47,894 nt of DNA, taken from assembly GCA_023128895.1 (NCBI GenBank), contig JAGMDC010000001.1, forward strand, positions 1 through 47,894, written 5' to 3'. Source of the DNA: Candidatus Parcubacteria bacterium. Its GTDB lineage: Bacteria; Patescibacteriota; Minisyncoccia; Minisyncoccales; JAGMDC01. The position numbers and the translations under genes are program-made. Numbering within the stretch: the first letter of the stretch is position 1; every line of letters starts with the position of its first letter. The notes beneath the pieces are model-generated. The model was not told the DNA's origin. It saw nothing but the letters and a program-made list of their open reading frames with translations, and made no database searches. Shown here one piece after another: positions 6,151 to 42,090 of the stretch.

Positions 6151-6197
6151 TATGTACTGTACCAAAACAATAGCACAGACGCACTATTTTGTCAAAT
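6151..6197 (-). promoter_or_regulatory. sigma70 promoter overlapping the recJ-like stop codon
   Basis: TTGACA(6195-6190)-N17-TATTGT with extended TGn; paralogue of 3947-3993. Confidence 0.75.
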
Positions 6198-7344
6198 TTT
6201 CAAAGTATTTTTTGAGGCATTCTTCAAACTTTTTCAAGTTTTTGTTTTGTATTGAAAATCCAGCCGCAGGAGGATGACCGCCGAAATTTATTAAAAGTTT
6301 GCCGCAGGACTCCATTGCTTTTACAGCGTCAAATCCTTGTGGCATTCTCACTGCTCCGATGCTTCTGCCTCGCATTTTATTATATATAAACGTGGGTTTT
6401 CTATACTTGTTGCAAACGCGCGAAGCAACAGCGCCGATAAGAACATTATACCATTCAGAGTCGCCTTCAAAAATAATGTCGCTGTCTGAATTTTTATATG
6501 CCCTATCCCCTGCTTCCTGCGCGGCTTGTTTAATCCTGAGCTGCCTTTCTTGCGTTTGTTCCAATAATTTTTTAGCCAAAATTTTCGCGCGTTTTTCATC
6601 TTTACTGGTTAAAAGAAAATACGCGCCTGTTTTATTTTTTTCAATGCCGCTAACGTTGAGACAAGAGATAATTTTTCGCGCCAATTGGTTTATATCCAAA
6701 TTTTTAAGAACTTCTATTTCAGAAAAGACCTTTAGTCCGACACGCGATGTATATTCCAATGAATAAATCCCCTGCTCAATATAGAATTTGTTCTCGTCTT
6801 CCTGGGGCATCATATCAGCCAGAGTTGCCAGACCGGTTAATTCCAAAAATTCAGTGTCTAAATTCGGCGGCAGATTATTTTCATAAAGAATTTTTACCAA
6901 GCGATAGACAATCCCTGCATTAGCCAAATCCTTAAACGGGTATTTATCTGTTTTCTGTTTTGGGTCAACAACAATATCCGCGTTTGGAATATTGCCGACT
7001 ATTGCGTGATGGTCAACAATAATTATTTCAAATCCCATTTTTTTCGCTGTTTTCACTTCTTCAAAATTCGTTATACCAAGGTCTAATGTTATAAACAAAG
7101 CCGGCGCGTATTTTTTTAGATGCGCCAGAGCGCTTTTGTTTATACCGTATCCCTGCTTTTCCCTGTCAACAAAATAGACAATTACATTGCCTTCTAAATT
7201 TTTGATTGCTTCTTCTAACACAACAACAGACGCTGTTCCGTCTAAATCAGCGTCGCCGTATAAAATAATAGTTTCCTGATTTTTGATTGCTTTCAAAATC
7301 CTTTTTGCTGTTTTTTTAAGATTTTTAATTTCAGGGGTTGACAT
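6184..7344 (-). CDS. recJ: RecJ-like DHH/DHHA1 ssDNA exonuclease (short form without C-terminal OB domain)
   Basis: YGDADLDG, GYGIN, ITLDLG, IVDHH, ATLADMMP, FGGHPPAAG; start moved to MSTPE (ATG 7344). Confidence 0.8.
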   Translation of the reverse strand: MSTPEIKNLKKTAKRILKAIKNQETIILYGDADLDGTASVVVLEEAIKNLEGNVIVYFVDREKQGYGINKSALAHLKKYAPALFITLDLGITNFEEVKTAKKMGFEIIIVDHHAIVGNIPNADIVVDPKQKTDKYPFKDLANAGIVYRLVKILYENNLPPNLDTEFLELTGLATLADMMPQEDENKFYIEQGIYSLEYTSRVGLKVFSEIEVLKNLDINQLARKIISCLNVSGIEKNKTGAYFLLTSKDEKRAKILAKKLLEQTQERQLRIKQAAQEAGDRAYKNSDSDIIFEGDSEWYNVLIGAVASRVCNKYRKPTFIYNKMRGRSIGAVRMPQGFDAVKAMESCGKLLINFGGHPPAAGFSIQNKNLKKFEECLKKYFENLTK

Positions 7345-7672
7345 AATTTTGTAATTGAGTAATATTAAGGTATGGTAAAAGAGAGAAAGAAAGAAAAAGC
7401 GAAAATTAGAAAAATAGATAAAATACGGAAAACCGGAACCTGGCATGCGACCCATAGCACCCGCTGATCGTGCGGCTTCGCCGGGAAAAAAAGAGAGGCA
7501 GTCCGCTATAAACAGCGGCTTAGGAGTGAGAAAAGCAAACCTCTCTTCTCCCATTTTGGGGACACAGCATTTTTACAATTTCATATATCAGTTTTAATCA
7601 TTATCACCATAGCATTACAGCATCACCGTATCACATTTTTTTTTCATTAGGGCGCTCATTAGCGTCTCTTTT
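7338..7672 (+). ncRNA. Candidate structured ncRNA A (promoter to terminator)
   Basis: TTGACA-N16-TAATAT, several GC stems, 3' segment homologous to 10149-10219, hairpin plus T-run at the end; only a 31-aa uORF. Confidence 0.4.
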
Positions 7673-7715
7673 AATTTCTTATAATAGCACAAAAATAATC
7701 AAATCACAAAACATC

Positions 7716-7750
7716 TTGAATAAAAGCCAAAATTAGGATAAAATAACACA
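7716..7750 (+). promoter_or_regulatory. Leaderless-type promoter
   Basis: TTGAAT-N17-TAAAAT, 6 nt upstream of ATG 7751. Confidence 0.55.
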
Positions 7751-9208
7751 ATGACGCAAAAAATCAGAAAATACATTGTTTGTTTTCTAATACTTTTGTT
7801 TCTTCTTATCACTCCCTTAACAATCCTTTATTCACAGGGTTATCGTTTTGATATTATAAATAAAAAGGTCTGTTTAACAGGAGGATTGTTTATAAAAGGA
7901 CTGCCAAAAAGCGCTAATATTTATCTTGACGAAATTTTAGTTGATAAAACCGATTTTTTGTTTGGTTCTATTTTGATAGATAATCTTTTGCCAAAACAAT
8001 ATAAAATTTCAGTAAAAAAAGACGGATATTATTCTTGGAATAAAACTTTGGATGTGCAAGAGAAACAAGTTATTGACGCGAAAAATATCACATTAGTGCC
8101 GAAAAATTCTGAATTTTTTATCAGCAATAAAAACGTTGAAAATTTTTGGCCTTTCCCGGAACAAGAAAAAATCATAATTCAGGAAAAGGAATATAATAAC
8201 AATAATTCTACTTTGACTGACTGGTCGTTAAAACTTCTTGATTCAGAAAAAAATATAAAAAGCCATTTGATTAGCGCTAAAAAAATTCTTGGATACAGGG
8301 CAACGAGCGCGCCAATATGCTTGCTCACTCTTGATTTTTCTCCTGACGCTGCTCTGGTTCTTGTAAAGACAAAAACAGACGAACAAACGCAGTATTTTAT
8401 AATTGATTTATCAAAAACAAATATTAAGTCCATTGAACTCGATTTTTCAGAGCAAACAATAGATAATATATGGTTTCATCCCAAAAATTCTGAAAAAATA
8501 TTATTTCTCGCGAACAATCAATTATTTGAAAAAAATGTTTCAGAAACAATAAAAACTCAAACAGAACCTATTTTACGCGACATTCTCGCCTGCGCTTTTA
8601 CTAAAAACAACATCTATTATTTGGACACAAAAGGCGCGCTGATAAAAACAAATTTTTCTTTACAGGGAAAAGAGAAATTACTAAAAGAAAATTTTGTCTT
8701 AAATCCCAACAAAGCATATAAATTAAAAGTTGAACAAAATTTTGTTTTTCTTTTCGAAGGCAAGACATTGTACTGGCTGGACACAAAATCTAAAACGCTT
8801 GAAAAACTTTTAGACAGAGCGGAAGATATTAAACTCGCTCCTGATTTTAAAAAAATTTGCTATTTCAACAATTATGAAATCTGGATTTTATTCTTAGACA
8901 ACCAACTGGAACAGCCGAAAAGAAAATCAGGGGAAAAGGTTTTTCTTACCAGGTTTTCAAAAAAAATCAGCGATATTTTTTGGTGGACTAACCATTATTT
9001 GATTTTTACAACAGAGGAAATAAGTTCCGCGCCCCTTGAAGACAAGAGGCGCGAAATAAAAATTATGGAAATTGACAATCGCGATAAAATAAACAGTTAT
9101 ATCCTTACAGAATCCCAAAATCCAAAAATATTCTGGAACTCTTTCAATAAAAAACTTTATGTGCTAAATAATGAAATTTTATATTGTTCTGAAAAATTGA
9201 TTAAGTGA
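7751..9208 (+). CDS. Membrane-anchored PEGA-domain protein with probable beta-propeller C-terminus
   Basis: N-terminal TM, GYRFD..TGGLFIK..P..ANIYLD..NLLPKQYKISVKKDGYYSW PEGA-like pattern; FSPD/WFHP-type repeats. Confidence 0.7.
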   Translation: MTQKIRKYIVCFLILLFLLITPLTILYSQGYRFDIINKKVCLTGGLFIKGLPKSANIYLDEILVDKTDFLFGSILIDNLLPKQYKISVKKDGYYSWNKTLDVQEKQVIDAKNITLVPKNSEFFISNKNVENFWPFPEQEKIIIQEKEYNNNNSTLTDWSLKLLDSEKNIKSHLISAKKILGYRATSAPICLLTLDFSPDAALVLVKTKTDEQTQYFIIDLSKTNIKSIELDFSEQTIDNIWFHPKNSEKILFLANNQLFEKNVSETIKTQTEPILRDILACAFTKNNIYYLDTKGALIKTNFSLQGKEKLLKENFVLNPNKAYKLKVEQNFVFLFEGKTLYWLDTKSKTLEKLLDRAEDIKLAPDFKKICYFNNYEIWILFLDNQLEQPKRKSGEKVFLTRFSKKISDIFWWTNHYLIFTTEEISSAPLEDKRREIKIMEIDNRDKINSYILTESQNPKIFWNSFNKKLYVLNNEILYCSEKLIK

Positions 9209-9221
9209 TTGGCTGCGGCTG

Positions 9222-9848
9222 CTACTGGATTTTCTGGCACTCCTCGCGATATTCGCAATAATCGCAGCGCCAGGACTCAATATTTTCTGGAATAGCGGGC
9301 AGAATATCTTTATCAATCTGCTCTTTCAACTGCTTGAAATTTTTCAGAACATCCTGAATTATAAAAGGATCGTATTTGACAGAAAATTCTTTCAAAGTTT
9401 GTTTGTCTTTGTCCTCGTAAAGCAAAATTCCGTCTGGAATTTTGAAATAATGCATATAAAGCTGAACCTGCTTTATGTGGTCTGGTTCCGGATTTTCCAA
9501 TTTTTGAAATTTATAACTTGCGATAGATTTAATTTCTAATACATACGGCTTGCCTTCAATATCAATAATAGCGTCCGCCCTCCCTGAAATAATCTCCTGG
9601 GGAGGGATTTTTATTTCCACTGCCCTTATAATCCCCAAGCCGAACAAAACAGTCGCAATCCTCATATGCGTATAGTCCCCATTGTCAAAAATGCGAAGAA
9701 CCCTTGGTTCAGGGTCTTTCTTGGGATATTTTTTAAACTTAAAATAAAGCGCGCGAGGACACTTGGCTGAATCAGTGACATAGAATTTTTCCTGCCCCCT
9801 GTCTTTGAAATTATCAGTATAAAATTGGTCAATAAGATTTGTAAGCAT
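9222..9848 (-). CDS. Solo Cas4-like PD-(D/E)XK Fe-S exonuclease
   Basis: CPR..GDYTH..GRAD..LEIKS..QVQLY..CDYC....C: RecB-like motifs plus the 1+3 Cys Fe-S staple. Confidence 0.8.
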   Translation of the reverse strand: MLTNLIDQFYTDNFKDRGQEKFYVTDSAKCPRALYFKFKKYPKKDPEPRVLRIFDNGDYTHMRIATVLFGLGIIRAVEIKIPPQEIISGRADAIIDIEGKPYVLEIKSIASYKFQKLENPEPDHIKQVQLYMHYFKIPDGILLYEDKDKQTLKEFSVKYDPFIIQDVLKNFKQLKEQIDKDILPAIPENIESWRCDYCEYREECQKIQ

Positions 9849-9879
9849 ATATTATGATATTGTTCTACACCCTCATTAG

Positions 9880-9888
9880 TTATCCACA
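9880..9888 (+). promoter_or_regulatory. Perfect DnaA-box match
   Basis: TTATCCACA immediately upstream of a TTGACA -35 box. Confidence 0.4.
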
Positions 9889-9889
9889 G

Positions 9890-10242
9890 TTGACAAAATT
9901 TTCAATTTTGTATAATATTAAAATTGCCATGAGAGAAAAGGATGTGGAAAAAGTGAGAGTTGTTGCATAGATGTAACGGTGCGAAAACATTAATACAGTG
10001 ATATAACGATTTGGCGGTTTCAACAAAAGGGATTGCACCGGTCTCAGGCGGAAAGGAAGATAAGGGTGAATCACCCGGATATTTATTTCAATACCACTGT
10101 ATTGGACAAGGGCGATTACCCTACATTTCTGCTGTTATAGCACATTTTAATTTAATACATCAGTATTACCATATTACCATCAATTTTTCAGCACCACTGT
10201 TTCACATTTATCATAGAGCAATAGTAATATTGCTCTTATTTA
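9890..10242 (+). ncRNA. Candidate ncRNA B (promoter to terminator)
   Basis: TTGACA-N17-TAATAT; long-range AATACAGTG/CACTGTATT pairing; 3' segment homologous to locus A; AGAGCAATA-gtaa-TATTGCTCT hairpin. Confidence 0.4.
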
Positions 10243-10247
10243 ATTGA

Positions 10248-10411
10248 GCGAGGCAACAAGTCCTCAATGGCAAACATCGGAGGCGCCTGAGCATGGTCCG
10301 AGCCCCCACACCTAATTTAGGTGTGGGGGCTCGGACAGGCGCTGAGATATTAGACCCCAAAACCCCGCTGGGGTTTTGAGGGTCGGTGCCTTGAGGGCTT
10401 CGTTGCTTCGC
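10248..10411. repeat. Nested palindromic (REPIN/MITE-like) element
   Basis: Outer IR GCGAGGCAAC..CCTCAA/TTGAGG..GTTGCTTCGC; inner 20-bp perfect IR at 10296-10336 and a second IR at 10353-10384. Confidence 0.75.
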
Positions 10412-10424
10412 GAGATTCAACACA

Positions 10425-10919
10425 TCATCGCTTCTTCCACTGCGGCGCGCGACGGGCGCGTTTTAACCCGAATTTCTTTCTTTCTCTCATCCTTGAATCC
10501 CTTGTTAAATATCCGTGCTTTTTCAACCGTTTTCTGAATATAGGATTAATTTCAACTAAAATCTTGGCAATAGCGTGCCTCACTGCTTCTGCCTGCGCGT
10601 GCATTCCGCCTCCCTTCACTATTGCTTGAATCCTAAATCTTTCACAAAGTTTCATTTTATCCAAAGACGAAGAAGCAATCTTCTGAAGCTCTAAAATAGG
10701 AAAATATTCGTTATACGGTTTGTTATTAACTAAAAAAACTTTTTCCCCGCGAGTAAACAAACGAACTCTTGCCTTTGCTGTTTTCCTCTTGCCCATTTCC
10801 TCAAAATACCTGTTGTTGTTTTTTTCTTCAATTTCTATCTTCTCTTCAGCGGCTTCAGTAACCGGGCCACTGATTTTTTTTACCGCTGGTTTTTTAGTTG
10901 TAGGTTTTTCTTTTTTCAT
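10425..10919 (-). CDS. rpsI: 30S ribosomal protein S9
   Basis: GKRKTAKARVRL, GGGMHAQAEAVRHA, TRDSRMRERKKFGLKRARRAPQWKKR. Confidence 0.96.
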   Translation of the reverse strand: MKKEKPTTKKPAVKKISGPVTEAAEEKIEIEEKNNNRYFEEMGKRKTAKARVRLFTRGEKVFLVNNKPYNEYFPILELQKIASSSLDKMKLCERFRIQAIVKGGGMHAQAEAVRHAIAKILVEINPIFRKRLKKHGYLTRDSRMRERKKFGLKRARRAPQWKKR

Positions 10920-41707: not shown

Positions 41708-42026
41708 AAATTTATATGCGGAGGGTGCAGGATTCGAAGAGTTGCCCGAAGGCGGTGTTTCGCCTCACTCCGCTCGGCGAAACGCGGGAGGAGGTTCTCG
41801 CCACACACCCATCCCAATATAAATTTATAAACACCTGCGGTGTTTGAAATTTATTTGCGGAGGGTGCAGGATTCGAAGAGTTGCCCGAAGGCACCGCCGT
41901 CTTATCCTCGCTTCGCTCGGATAAGCCGCGGTTCGGGAGGAGGTTCTCGCCACACACCCATCCCAATATAAATTTACAAATGCCTGCGGCGTTTGAAATT
42001 TATATGCGGAGGGTGCAGGATTCGAA
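41708..42026 (-). repeat. tRNA-linked tandem repeat array (periods 139 and 149 bp)
   Basis: Three copies of AAATTTAT(A/T)TGCGGAGGGTGCAGGATTCGAA at 41708, 41847 and 41996; the last belongs to the tRNA. Confidence 0.9.
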
Positions 42027-42090
42027 CCTGCGCGGGGAAAACCCCACTAGTTTTCAAAACTAGCGCCATAAGCCACTCGACCAACCCTCC
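42007..42090 (-). tRNA. tRNA-Ser(TGA)
   Basis: GGAGGGT/ACCCTCC acceptor stem, CTAGT-tt TGA aa-ACTAG anticodon arm, long variable arm, GGTTCGAATCC T-loop; CCA not encoded. Confidence 0.95.

What the first reader, a model, noticed from the sequence alone, without database searches (positions are those of the whole stretch)
7338..10242. Two homologous ~300-nt candidate ncRNAs, each divergent from a nuclease gene
Seen: loci A (7338-7672) and B (9890-10242) both begin TTGACA-N16/17-TAATATTAA and have a purine-rich 5' part with a short uORF (31 aa and 13 aa) and a GC-richer foldable core. They end in clearly homologous G-poor segments: A 7577 AATTTCATATATCAGTTTTA..ACCAT..CAGCATCACCGTATCACATTT..CATTAGGGC and B 10149 AATTTAATACATCAGTATTA..ACCAT..CAGCACCACTGTTTCACATTTATCATAGAGC, each followed by a hairpin. 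Stems in A (CCTGGC/GCCGGG, GGGCGCT/AGCGTCT) need G-U pairs, favouring a + strand RNA. A is head-to-head with recJ-like and B with cas4-like. No tmRNA, RNase P or SRP signature was recognised. Inference: an undescribed sRNA family; the CAU/CACC-rich tail could pair with GGUG/AUG translation starts. Alternatively they are minus-strand leaders of the nucleases (a TGcTATTAT -10 lies near 7681-7689).
Basis: partly seen in the sequence, partly recalled or inferred. Interest (0 to 1): 0.7.

Follow-up and report, generated by a model that had tools for sequence, protein, structure and literature searches.

The report
Two paralogous candidate small-RNA genes
Two related stretches of about 320 bases in a very small bacterial genome look like independently transcribed non-coding RNA genes of an undescribed family confined to a few related genomes, and what the RNA does is still unknown.

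Summary
A (about 7338-7680) and B (about 9890-10246) each carry the best sigma-70-like promoter and a + strand intrinsic terminator of the region. They are alike well above shuffles and are the only two copies in the 741-kb genome. No Rfam family matches. No ORF is shared, and no ORF has a Pfam family. Homologous units of 268-396 nt lie in sister genera at the same two sites. The sites are the spacers upstream of the recJ-like gene (G003, G004, G006, probably G001) and between rpsI and the cas4-like gene (G005). Between relatives only the promoter, a 5' purine block, a G-poor CAU-rich 3' tail and the terminator stay alike; the interior cannot be aligned. I read them as a new, narrowly distributed stand-alone ncRNA family on the + strand, with function unknown. 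My best guess is a trans-acting regulator or sponge working through its G-poor tail. The nuclease neighbours are probably incidental, because both sites are operon junctions that are tight in most relatives and also take other insertions. SRP RNA, 6S and CsrB-like readings were tested and not supported. No expression data could be obtained.

The parts
7338..7365 (+). Unit A promoter: TTGACA, 16 nt, TAATAT. The TTGACA overlaps the start codon (7342-7344, minus strand) of the recJ-like gene.
   Evidence: 10 of 12 matches
7372..7680 (+). Unit A, the predicted RNA of about 310 nt. The start is inferred from the -10 box and the end from the terminator.
   Evidence: no experimental ends
7389..7402 (+). 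A: 5' strand of the predicted long-range helix P2 (purine block)
7439..7485 (+). A: hairpin domain Pa (CCUGGC...GCCGGG, one U-G pair)
7491..7547 (+). A: hairpin domain Pb (purine-rich 5' strand, pyrimidine-rich 3' strand). Relatives have a helix at the same place with different sequences.
   Evidence: read by eye across relatives, not statistically tested
7562..7648 (+). A: G-poor (5 G in 87 nt), CAU-rich tail. It holds the conserved blocks UACAAUUUCAUA and CAGCAUCACCGUAUCACAUUU, and the 3' strand of P2 at 7631-7644.
7650..7677 (+). A: intrinsic terminator, 7-bp stem with two G-U pairs, then CUUUUAAUUU
9890..9918 (+). Unit B promoter: TTGACA, 17 nt, TAATAT
9922..10246 (+). Unit B, the predicted RNA of about 325 nt
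9943..9956 (+). B: 5' strand of P2
10133..10216 (+). B: G-poor (6 G in 84 nt), CAU-rich tail. The 3' strand of P2 lies at 10202-10215.
10215..10246 (+). B: intrinsic terminator, 9-bp stem, then UAUUUAAUUG
6184..7344 (-). Flank: DHH/DHHA1 (recJ-like) gene, 386 aa
9222..9848 (-). Flank: PD-(D/E)XK / Cas4-like gene, 208 aa
10246..10424 (.). Flank, not part of the RNA: one copy of a GC-rich palindromic repeat with at least 8 copies in the genome, lying between B and the stop of rpsI (10425-10919, minus strand)

Best explanation
A and B are two paralogous stand-alone genes for a non-coding RNA of about 310-325 nt. Each is read on the + strand from a near-consensus sigma-70 promoter to an intrinsic terminator. 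They belong to a fast-evolving family confined, as far as I could see, to one family of ultra-small genomes.

The common plan is:
- a purine-rich 5' part;
- GC-richer hairpins (Pa, Pb);
- a 50-90-nt G-poor, CAU-rich tail that is mostly predicted to be open;
- a terminator;
- a long-range helix (P2) that ties a conserved 5' purine block to the 3' end of the tail.

Shown: two copies only, homologues at two syntenic sites, no Rfam match, no shared ORF, promoter and terminator signals on the + strand, and conservation limited to the promoter, the 5' block, the tail and the terminator.

Inferred: the RNA is made and abundant, and it acts in trans. I take the unstructured G-poor tail to be the working part. 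It would either pair with AUG-containing start regions of mRNAs or hold a single-strand RNA-binding protein.

The nuclease neighbours are most likely not partners. The units sit antisense in two operon junctions (pgk to recJ-like, rpsI to cas4-like) that tolerate insertions.
For: Signals:
- The two best promoter matches and + strand terminators of the region lie at the units' ends.

Paralogy:
- A against B scores 44, reached by 0 of 200 shuffles.
- They are the only two tail copies in the genome.

Family (Smith-Waterman against 200 dinucleotide shuffles; alignments):
- A-G003, B-G004, G003-G006, G004-G006 and G003-G112 are each reached by 0 of 200 shuffles.

Positions:
- Units lie next to the recJ-like gene in G003, G004, G006 and G001.
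- A unit lies at the B site in G005.

Selection:
- Between G004 and G006 only the promoter (94% of 32 nt) and the 3' 110 nt (76%) are found by BLAST.
- The 5' strand of the long-range helix is also kept.

Structure:
- The + strand MFE z-score is -2.4 or lower in 7 of 8 units.
- Helix P2 in A and B pairs 22 of 22 cells, against 54-68% in slid controls, with 3 pairs changed on both sides.
- The analogous 12-bp helix is kept in G004 and G006.

Strand:
- P2 and the stems contain G-U pairs.
- U tracts follow the hairpins only on the + strand (by eye).

Non-coding:
- 6 of 6 ORFs from the units have no Pfam family at E<=1.
- The small ORFs differ in length and frame among A, B, G003, G004 and G006 (read).

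Tail:
- G makes up 5-7% of the tail.
- CAU occurs 2.3-3.2 times more often than in composition shuffles in 5 of 5 tails: A 1 of 2000, B 31, G003 66, G004 150, G006 45 of 2000 shuffles reach the observed count.

Not a known RNA:
- Searches find no Rfam match.
- RNase P RNA and tmRNA lie elsewhere in the genome.
Against: - There are no expression data of any kind.
- A's own fold is no better than shuffles (z -0.95 or -0.96).
- The fold z-scores do not favour the + strand over the - strand.
- With two sequences, the P2 covariation is reached by 59 of 500 shuffles, so it is only suggestive.
- The interiors cannot be aligned, so Pa and Pb rest on single-sequence folds read by eye.
- The tail is not clearly open in all units. 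Mean pairing probability is 0.31-0.32 in A and G003 but 0.58-0.60 in B and G006, the same as the rest of the RNA.
- The distribution is patchy. The closest recJ-like relative (G002, 63% identity) has no unit at the site.
- None of the 24 metagenome loci examined has a unit.
- A covariance model of the 3' part finds only A, B and G005 in 141 genomes of the order.
- Such patchiness also fits a dispensable or selfish insert.
- Membership of G001 is marginal (12 of 200 with A). Membership of G005 and G020 is not shown by sequence statistics.
Confidence: 0.5

Rival explanations
1. The units are dispensable or selfish insertion cassettes. A promoter module and a terminator module bracket variable filler that lands in the few permissive spacers of a compact genome. 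The RNA made from them has no function for the host.
For: Both sites are insertion hot spots.
- The rpsI to cas4-like spacer is 62 nt or less in 18 of 26 loci that have both genes.
- It is 467 nt or more in 5 of those 26. Two hold the RNA unit (G000, G005), one holds a 110-aa ORF with a similar promoter and a similar motif before its terminator (G004), and two hold another ORF flanked by ACGAAT repeats.
- The pgk to recJ-like spacer runs from -12 to 492 nt. It is filled in other families by GC-rich palindromes.

Other points:
- Presence is patchy among close relatives.
- The interior evolves beyond alignment.
- The same promoter module recurs in front of unrelated genes in G003 and G004.
- The terminator module is shared between different families: G003 against G112, 0 of 200 shuffles.
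Against: - No transposase, terminal inverted repeats or target duplication were seen. The 10-nt TTTTAATTTC on both sides of A lies in conserved recJ-like codons on one side and in the terminator U tract on the other.
- The tail and the 5' purine block are conserved where the interior is not. Filler would not show that.
- Only two copies exist in the genome.
Confidence: 0.2
2. The units act in cis on their operon. They are inserted antisense between pgk and the recJ-like gene, or between rpsI and the cas4-like gene. Their strong convergent transcription and the RNA itself would block or cut read-through, uncoupling the nuclease gene from the highly expressed upstream gene.
For: - pgk lies co-directionally and directly upstream of the recJ-like gene in 55 of 63 loci (14 of the 55 are rows my script labelled 'elsewhere' although the genes abut).
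- rpsI lies directly upstream of the cas4-like gene in 26 of 34 loci.
- Six of the seven units counted here lie antisense in one of these junctions, with the promoter next to the nuclease start and the terminator next to the upstream stop. They are G001, G003, G004 and G006 at the first site and G000-B and G005 at the second.
Against: - Unit A itself is not in an operon junction. Its other neighbour is a divergent PEGA-like gene, as in G002, which has no unit.
- A cis effect needs no conserved tail or long-range helix.
- Most genomes do without the unit.
Confidence: 0.12
3. The units encode small lysine-rich peptides, such as the 31-aa ORF at 7372-7467 or a 33-aa ORF behind a strong Shine-Dalgarno-like sequence in G006.
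For: - ORFs of similar size and composition start near the 5' end of A and in G006.
- The G006 ORF is preceded by AAGGAGGUGAU.
Against: - B has only 13 codons there, G003 has 8 and G004 has 9.
- A and G006 cross the shared CGGAAA(A)CCGG block in different frames.
- The ATG of A has no usable spacing to a Shine-Dalgarno sequence.
- No Pfam family is found.
Confidence: 0.05
4. The regions are long 5' leaders of the recJ-like and cas4-like mRNAs on the minus strand.
For: - A TG-extended TATTAT lies at 7681-7709 on the minus strand.
- The nuclease genes need a promoter somewhere in these regions.
- Minus-strand folds score about as well as plus-strand folds.
Against: - The cas4-like gene follows rpsI within 1-2 nt, with no leader, in G001, G003 and G006.
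- The recJ-like gene follows pgk within about 30 nt in many genomes.
- The conserved consensus promoter and the hairpin-plus-U-tract signals are on the + strand.
- The G-U pairs of P2 and of the stems become A-C on the minus strand.
Confidence: 0.04
5. They are very divergent copies of a known housekeeping RNA, either 6S RNA or SRP RNA. Neither is found in this genome by the Rfam models.
For: - RF00013, RF00169 and RF01854 find nothing in G000.
- The units have strong promoters, and two paralogues recall the two 6S RNAs of Bacillus (recalled).
Against: - No match at E<=10 over 7200-10500.
- G000 has no SRP54 M domain and no SRP-type GTPase at all, so no SRP RNA is expected.
- The units are about 1.5-2 times the usual 6S length. 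They are missing in close relatives, whereas a housekeeping RNA should be universal.
Confidence: 0.03

Closest known systems
Protein-sequestering sRNAs with repeated single-stranded motifs (CsrB/RsmZ with GGA motifs; CrcZ with A-rich CA motifs); recalled, not tested by sequence
   Same: - Stand-alone genes of 300-400 nt with a strong promoter and an intrinsic terminator.
- A repeated short motif in an open region (here CAU/YCAY in a G-poor tail).
- Fast sequence turnover and paralogous copies.
   Different: - No Rfam match.
- No CsrA gene in G000.
- The repeated motif is different, and no partner protein is known. A KhpA-type KH protein exists in G000, but nothing links it to the RNA.
Base-pairing sRNAs whose G-poor, C-rich open regions pair with Shine-Dalgarno or start regions (RsaE/RoxS type); recalled
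   Same: - A G-poor unstructured segment next to a terminator.
- Motifs complementary to translation start signals (CAU is the complement of AUG).
   Different: - Three times longer.
- The tail is A/U-rich with CAU, not C-rich.
- Part of the tail is predicted to pair inside the RNA.
- No targets were tested.
6S RNA (RF00013)
   Same: An abundant-looking stand-alone RNA whose 5' and 3' parts pair (P2). Two paralogues in one genome, as in Bacillus (recalled).
   Different: - No model match.
- About 310-400 nt.
- No evident central bubble.
- Patchy distribution.

Membership tests
Any Rfam 15 family | Covariance-model score at or above the family's gathering score | tested here: not met
   - Window at gathering threshold: only one tRNA, at 42007-42090.
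- Region 7200-10500 at E<=10: nothing on A. On B only STnc50 (E 5) and DapZ (E 6.5), far below their thresholds.
- Relatives' loci L021, L022, L030, L045 and L056 at E<=1: nothing on the units.
SRP RNA (RF00169 / RF01854) | Match to the domain IV model | tested here: not met
   also 0 of 41 genomes of the order
SRP RNA (RF00169 / RF01854) | Partner protein Ffh with an M domain encoded in the genome | tested here: not met
   - PF02978 gives no hit.
- PF00448 gives no hit.
- No DT[AS]GR pentapeptide occurs in any of the six frames (the motif is recalled).
6S RNA (RF00013) | Model match | tested here: not met
6S RNA (RF00013) | Rod of about 180 nt with a large central bubble that binds RNA polymerase holoenzyme | tested here: inconclusive
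   - A 5'-3' closing helix is predicted.
- The lengths are 268-396 nt, and the folds show multi-hairpin cores rather than a bubble.
- Binding cannot be tested with these tools.
CsrB/RsmZ-type sponge | CsrA encoded in the genome | tested here: not met
   PF02599 gives no hit in G000, which is 96.6% complete
Stand-alone bacterial sRNA gene (generic) | Own promoter and own intrinsic terminator, and no gene downstream on the same strand | tested here: met
   - Promoter and terminator signals.
- B, G003, G004, G006, G001 and G005 are convergent with the next gene.
- A is followed at 70 nt by a + strand ORF, but after a terminator.
Stand-alone bacterial sRNA gene (generic) | Detected transcript | not testable with these tools
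   No RNA run was listed as holding the stretch, and nothing was laid

The most novel reading that the evidence does not exclude
This would be a duplicating ncRNA gene cassette that settles antisense in operon junctions in front of dispensable nuclease genes. Its G-poor tail carries repeated anti-start-codon (UUUCAU-type, YCAY) motifs. Through that tail it would act as a global modulator of translation initiation, or as a sponge for a KH/S1-type single-strand RNA-binding protein. The lineage uses very short leaders poor in Shine-Dalgarno sequences and seems to lack the SRP pathway.
Probability: 0.08. Interest if true: 0.75.

Novelty: new member of a known kind. Interest (0 to 1): 0.4.

Why it matters
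Very few non-coding RNAs beyond rRNA, tRNA, RNase P RNA and tmRNA are described for ultra-small, uncultured bacteria; this rests on my recollection and on two paper searches that listed nothing relevant.

If real, this family would give such genomes a lineage-specific regulator. It has a clear anatomy: a conserved promoter, a 5'-3' closing helix and a G-poor CAU-rich platform. It also shows an instructive genomic habit, with the same unit at two alternative operon junctions. It could serve as a handle for RNA-protein pull-downs in enrichment cultures.

If it is only a tolerated insert, it still marks which junctions of a compact genome are permissive.

Tried and rejected
**Ideas tested and dropped**
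- SRP RNA. Some stretches of B looked SRP-like by eye, but no model matches and the genome has no Ffh or FtsY.
- 6S RNA: no model match.
- CsrB-like sponge: no CsrA.
- The tail as antisense to the recJ-like mRNA. BLAST of A against the family hit the antisense of the YGDAD codons of the recJ-like gene in G004 and G006 (84% of 32 nt, E about 0.003). In G000's own gene the match is weaker and went unreported. G004 and G006 tails lack the segment. I treat it as chance.
- Minus-strand small ORFs in the tail: A and B are in different frames (read).
- Target-site duplication around A (TTTTAATTTC): explained by conserved codons on one side and the U tract on the other.
- Likeness of Pb to the genome's repeated leader motif: the motif is absent from the fetched loci of other genomes, so it cannot explain the relatives' Pb.

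**Expression**
- No RNA holder was listed. Three metatranscriptome runs of related samples held next to none of the words and laid nothing.

**Searches for more members**
- BLAST of B in the family: only itself, 1 of 8 genomes.
- Metagenome scan with the recJ-like protein: 27 loci. I examined 24 and dropped L082-L084, which are partial or only 29-39% identical. None had a consensus promoter in the first 200 nt upstream.
- Covariance model R1 of the 3' part: hits in 2 of 141 genomes, all of them training sequences.
- G095 (L039) has a promoter-terminator unit at the site, but no similarity to any member, so I left it out.
- G005 against G020 is reached by 0 of 200 shuffles, but the match is only the U tract.

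**History and earlier notes**
- Pairwise identities of the 3' parts do not resolve whether A and B are old paralogues or recent copies.

Full report
**Setting**

The window is contig C1 of a 741-kb genome in 11 contigs, 96.6% complete.

- Unit A lies between a DHH/DHHA1 (recJ-like) gene (6184-7344, minus strand) and a 485-aa PEGA-like ORF (7751-9208, plus strand).
- Unit B lies between a PD-(D/E)XK/Cas4-like gene (9222-9848, minus strand) and rpsI (10425-10919, minus strand).

- Both units start with TTGACA, 16 or 17 nt, then TAATAT. These are the two best of 20 promoter-like sites in 7200-10500.
- Both end in + strand hairpin-plus-U-tract sites at 7650-7667 and 10215-10236.
- With promoters excluded, A against B scores 44 by Smith-Waterman. 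Dinucleotide shuffles give mean 19.2 and maximum 31, and 0 of 200 reach 44.
- A profile of the two tails finds only these two places in the genome.
- Identity is 65% in the promoter block, 55% in the next 40 columns and 62-68% at 7557-7636 / 10130-10207. It is 25-50% in between.
- The purine-rich 5' part is low-complexity and by itself adds little.

**Not a known RNA**

- At Rfam gathering thresholds the window holds one tRNA (ARAGORN agrees).
- At E<=10 nothing lies on A. Only two chance-level rows lie on B's terminator.
- RNase P RNA and tmRNA are elsewhere in the genome.
- The 6S, small-SRP and large-SRP models find nothing in the genome.
- I took the SRP idea seriously because some stretches of B looked SRP-like. 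The genome has no SRP54 M domain and no SRP-type GTPase, so no SRP RNA is expected.
- There is no CsrA either.

**A family exists**

BLAST with A led me, through a chance hit in the recJ-like coding region, to the orthologous loci of G004 and G006. There, right upstream of the recJ-like gene and on the opposite strand, is a unit with three features:
- a consensus promoter (TTGACA, 17 nt, TATAAT);
- 367-396 nt without a shared ORF;
- an intrinsic terminator, convergent with pgk.

G003 has one too, of 268 nt.

Sequence statistics (alignments):
- A-G003, B-G004, G003-G006, G004-G006 and G003-G112 are each reached by 0 of 200 shuffles.
- B-G006 is reached by 5 of 200.
- A-G001 is marginal, at 12 of 200.
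- G005-G020 is reached by 0 of 200, but the match is only the U tract.
- G095 has no similarity to any member and is left out.

The best conserved stretch is a tail block, roughly UAUAGCACAUUU-ACAAUUUCAUAGAUUUCAUUU. It is followed by an AUCAUAG(G/A)G motif that runs into the terminator stem.

G005 is in the same genus as G003, G004 and G006. It lacks a unit at the recJ-like site but has a 244-nt promoter-to-terminator unit at the B site, followed, as B is, by a GC-rich palindromic repeat. By eye it shares a GGUAGGACCUUUUGU stretch with G006. The statistics do not establish its membership.

**Conservation pattern**

- Between G004 and G006, BLAST sees only the promoter (94% of 32 nt) and the 3' 110 nt (76%).
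- The alignment also keeps a 5' purine block.
- A against B shows the same pattern.
- So the interior turns over beyond alignment while the ends are held. I take that as the main sign of selection on an RNA or on its signals.

**Structure**

- Plus-strand folds beat shuffles in 7 of 8 units (z -2.4 to -4.8). A is the exception at -0.95.
- Minus-strand z-scores are similar, so energy does not choose the strand.
- RNAalifold on A and B predicts a long-range helix, P2, between 7389-7402 and 7631-7644. In B it lies between 9943-9956 and 10202-10215.
- P2 pairs 22 of 22 cells, against 54-68% in slid controls, and 3 pairs change on both sides. With only two sequences, 59 of 500 shuffles do as well.
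- G004 and G006 have an analogous 12-bp helix between the conserved 5' purine block and the tail.
- Single-sequence folds place hairpin domains (Pa, Pb) between these strands. The Pb helix is present in each member with different sequences. This is read by eye and not tested statistically.

**Tail**

- The tails have 5-7% G.
- CAU is 2.3-3.2 times more frequent than in composition shuffles in 5 of 5 tails. The tails are related, so these are not independent tests.
- Mean pairing probability is low in A and G003 (0.31-0.32), 0.46 in G004, and no lower than the rest of the RNA in B and G006 (0.58-0.60).

**Strand and coding**

- The consensus promoters and U tracts are on the + strand.
- P2 and the stems need G-U pairs.
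- The small ORFs are 31, 13, 8, 9 and 33 codons in A, B, G003, G004 and G006. They agree neither in length nor in frame.
- 6 of 6 ORFs tested have no Pfam family.

**The nuclease neighbours**

- The recJ-like gene is found in 114 of 121 genomes of the order, and the cas4-like gene in 86 of 121.
- pgk lies co-directionally and directly upstream of the recJ-like gene in 55 of 63 loci. Spacers run from -12 to 492 nt (14 of the 55 are abutting pairs that my script labelled 'elsewhere').
- Only 6 of those loci show a + strand consensus promoter in the spacer. The other long spacers are GC-rich palindromes.
- rpsI lies directly upstream of the cas4-like gene in 26 of 34 loci, with 62 nt or less in 18 of them.
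- Five spacers are 467 nt or longer. Two hold the RNA unit (G000, G005), one holds a 110-aa ORF cassette (G004) and two hold another ORF (G070, G071).
- The closest recJ-like relative (G002) has the G000 gene order, recJ-like gene next to the PEGA-like gene, but only about 80 nt between them and no unit.
- Thus the units are insertions into two permissive junctions in front of the nuclease genes. I see no evidence of a functional tie.
- Whether the B site was filled once or twice, and whether A and B are old or recent paralogues, is not resolved.

**Reach**

- A covariance model of the 3' part (121 positions, 8 pairs) found only A, B and G005 in 141 genomes of the order. The tool scored at most 23 candidates per genome.
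- 24 metagenome loci with recJ-like relatives had none.
- The family is therefore narrow, or changes too fast to follow.

**Verdict**

This is a real, previously undescribed, narrowly distributed candidate ncRNA family on the + strand, with two paralogues here.

The mechanism is inferred, not shown. I favour a trans-acting RNA whose G-poor, CAU-rich tail is the working surface. A dispensable insertion cassette and a cis-acting antisense insulator are the main rivals. Expression could not be examined.

Noticed in passing
G000 whole genome and its order (outside the window): The SRP pathway seems to be missing.
- G000 has no SRP54 M domain, no SRP-type GTPase (neither Ffh nor FtsY), no SRP RNA and no DT[AS]GR motif in six frames.
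- In samples of the order, RF00169 matches 0 of 41 genomes.
- PF00448 gives only 5 weak, P-loop-only hits in 61 genomes, one of them barely over the cut-off.
- Two paper searches listed nothing on this (listings only).
- If it holds, this would be unusual for bacteria.
   Followed up: partly
window 10246-10424: A GC-rich palindromic repeat of about 175 nt lies here, with at least 8 copies in the genome. This copy sits between B's terminator and the stop of rpsI. Related palindromes fill the pgk to recJ-like spacers of other families and follow the unit in G005. It is probably a MITE-like or terminator-like element.
   Followed up: partly
window 9857-9875 (+): This is a partial copy of a motif, ATATTGTYCTACACTCTCA, that occurs about 30 times in the genome.
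- The motif often forms the outward ends of a two-armed intergenic element of about 250 nt.
- Start codons follow within about 5-20 nt.
- One arm lies just upstream of tmRNA.
- It looks like a lineage-specific promoter or leader module.
- Here it lies 15 nt upstream of B's TTGACA, so B may have a second start.
- It was not seen in the fetched loci of other genomes.
   Followed up: partly
G000:C2:21651-21840 (+), outside the window: A consensus promoter is followed by a long hairpin of about 150 nt (20-bp closing stem) and a U tract, convergent with the next gene. This is another candidate ncRNA, possibly 6S-like.
   Followed up: no
G000 C4:34939, C5:221740, C6:15547, C9:35506 (outside the window): AAGGTCG recurs about 30-40 nt upstream of start codons, just after consensus promoters. 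Its meaning is unknown.
   Followed up: no
window 9025-9056 (-): A 14-bp GC-rich hairpin with a T-rich tail, terminator-like on the minus strand, lies inside the 485-aa + strand ORF.
   Followed up: no
L091:2216-2548 (+) (G004): A 110-aa ORF without a Pfam family occupies the rpsI to cas4-like junction in G004. It has a consensus promoter, a strong Shine-Dalgarno sequence and a pre-terminator motif like that of the RNA units.
   Followed up: partly
L029:3176-3540, L050:364-841, L039:630-990: RNase P RNA lies within about 1-2 kb of the recJ-like gene in three relatives (G005, G072, G095), on the side away from the units.
   Followed up: no
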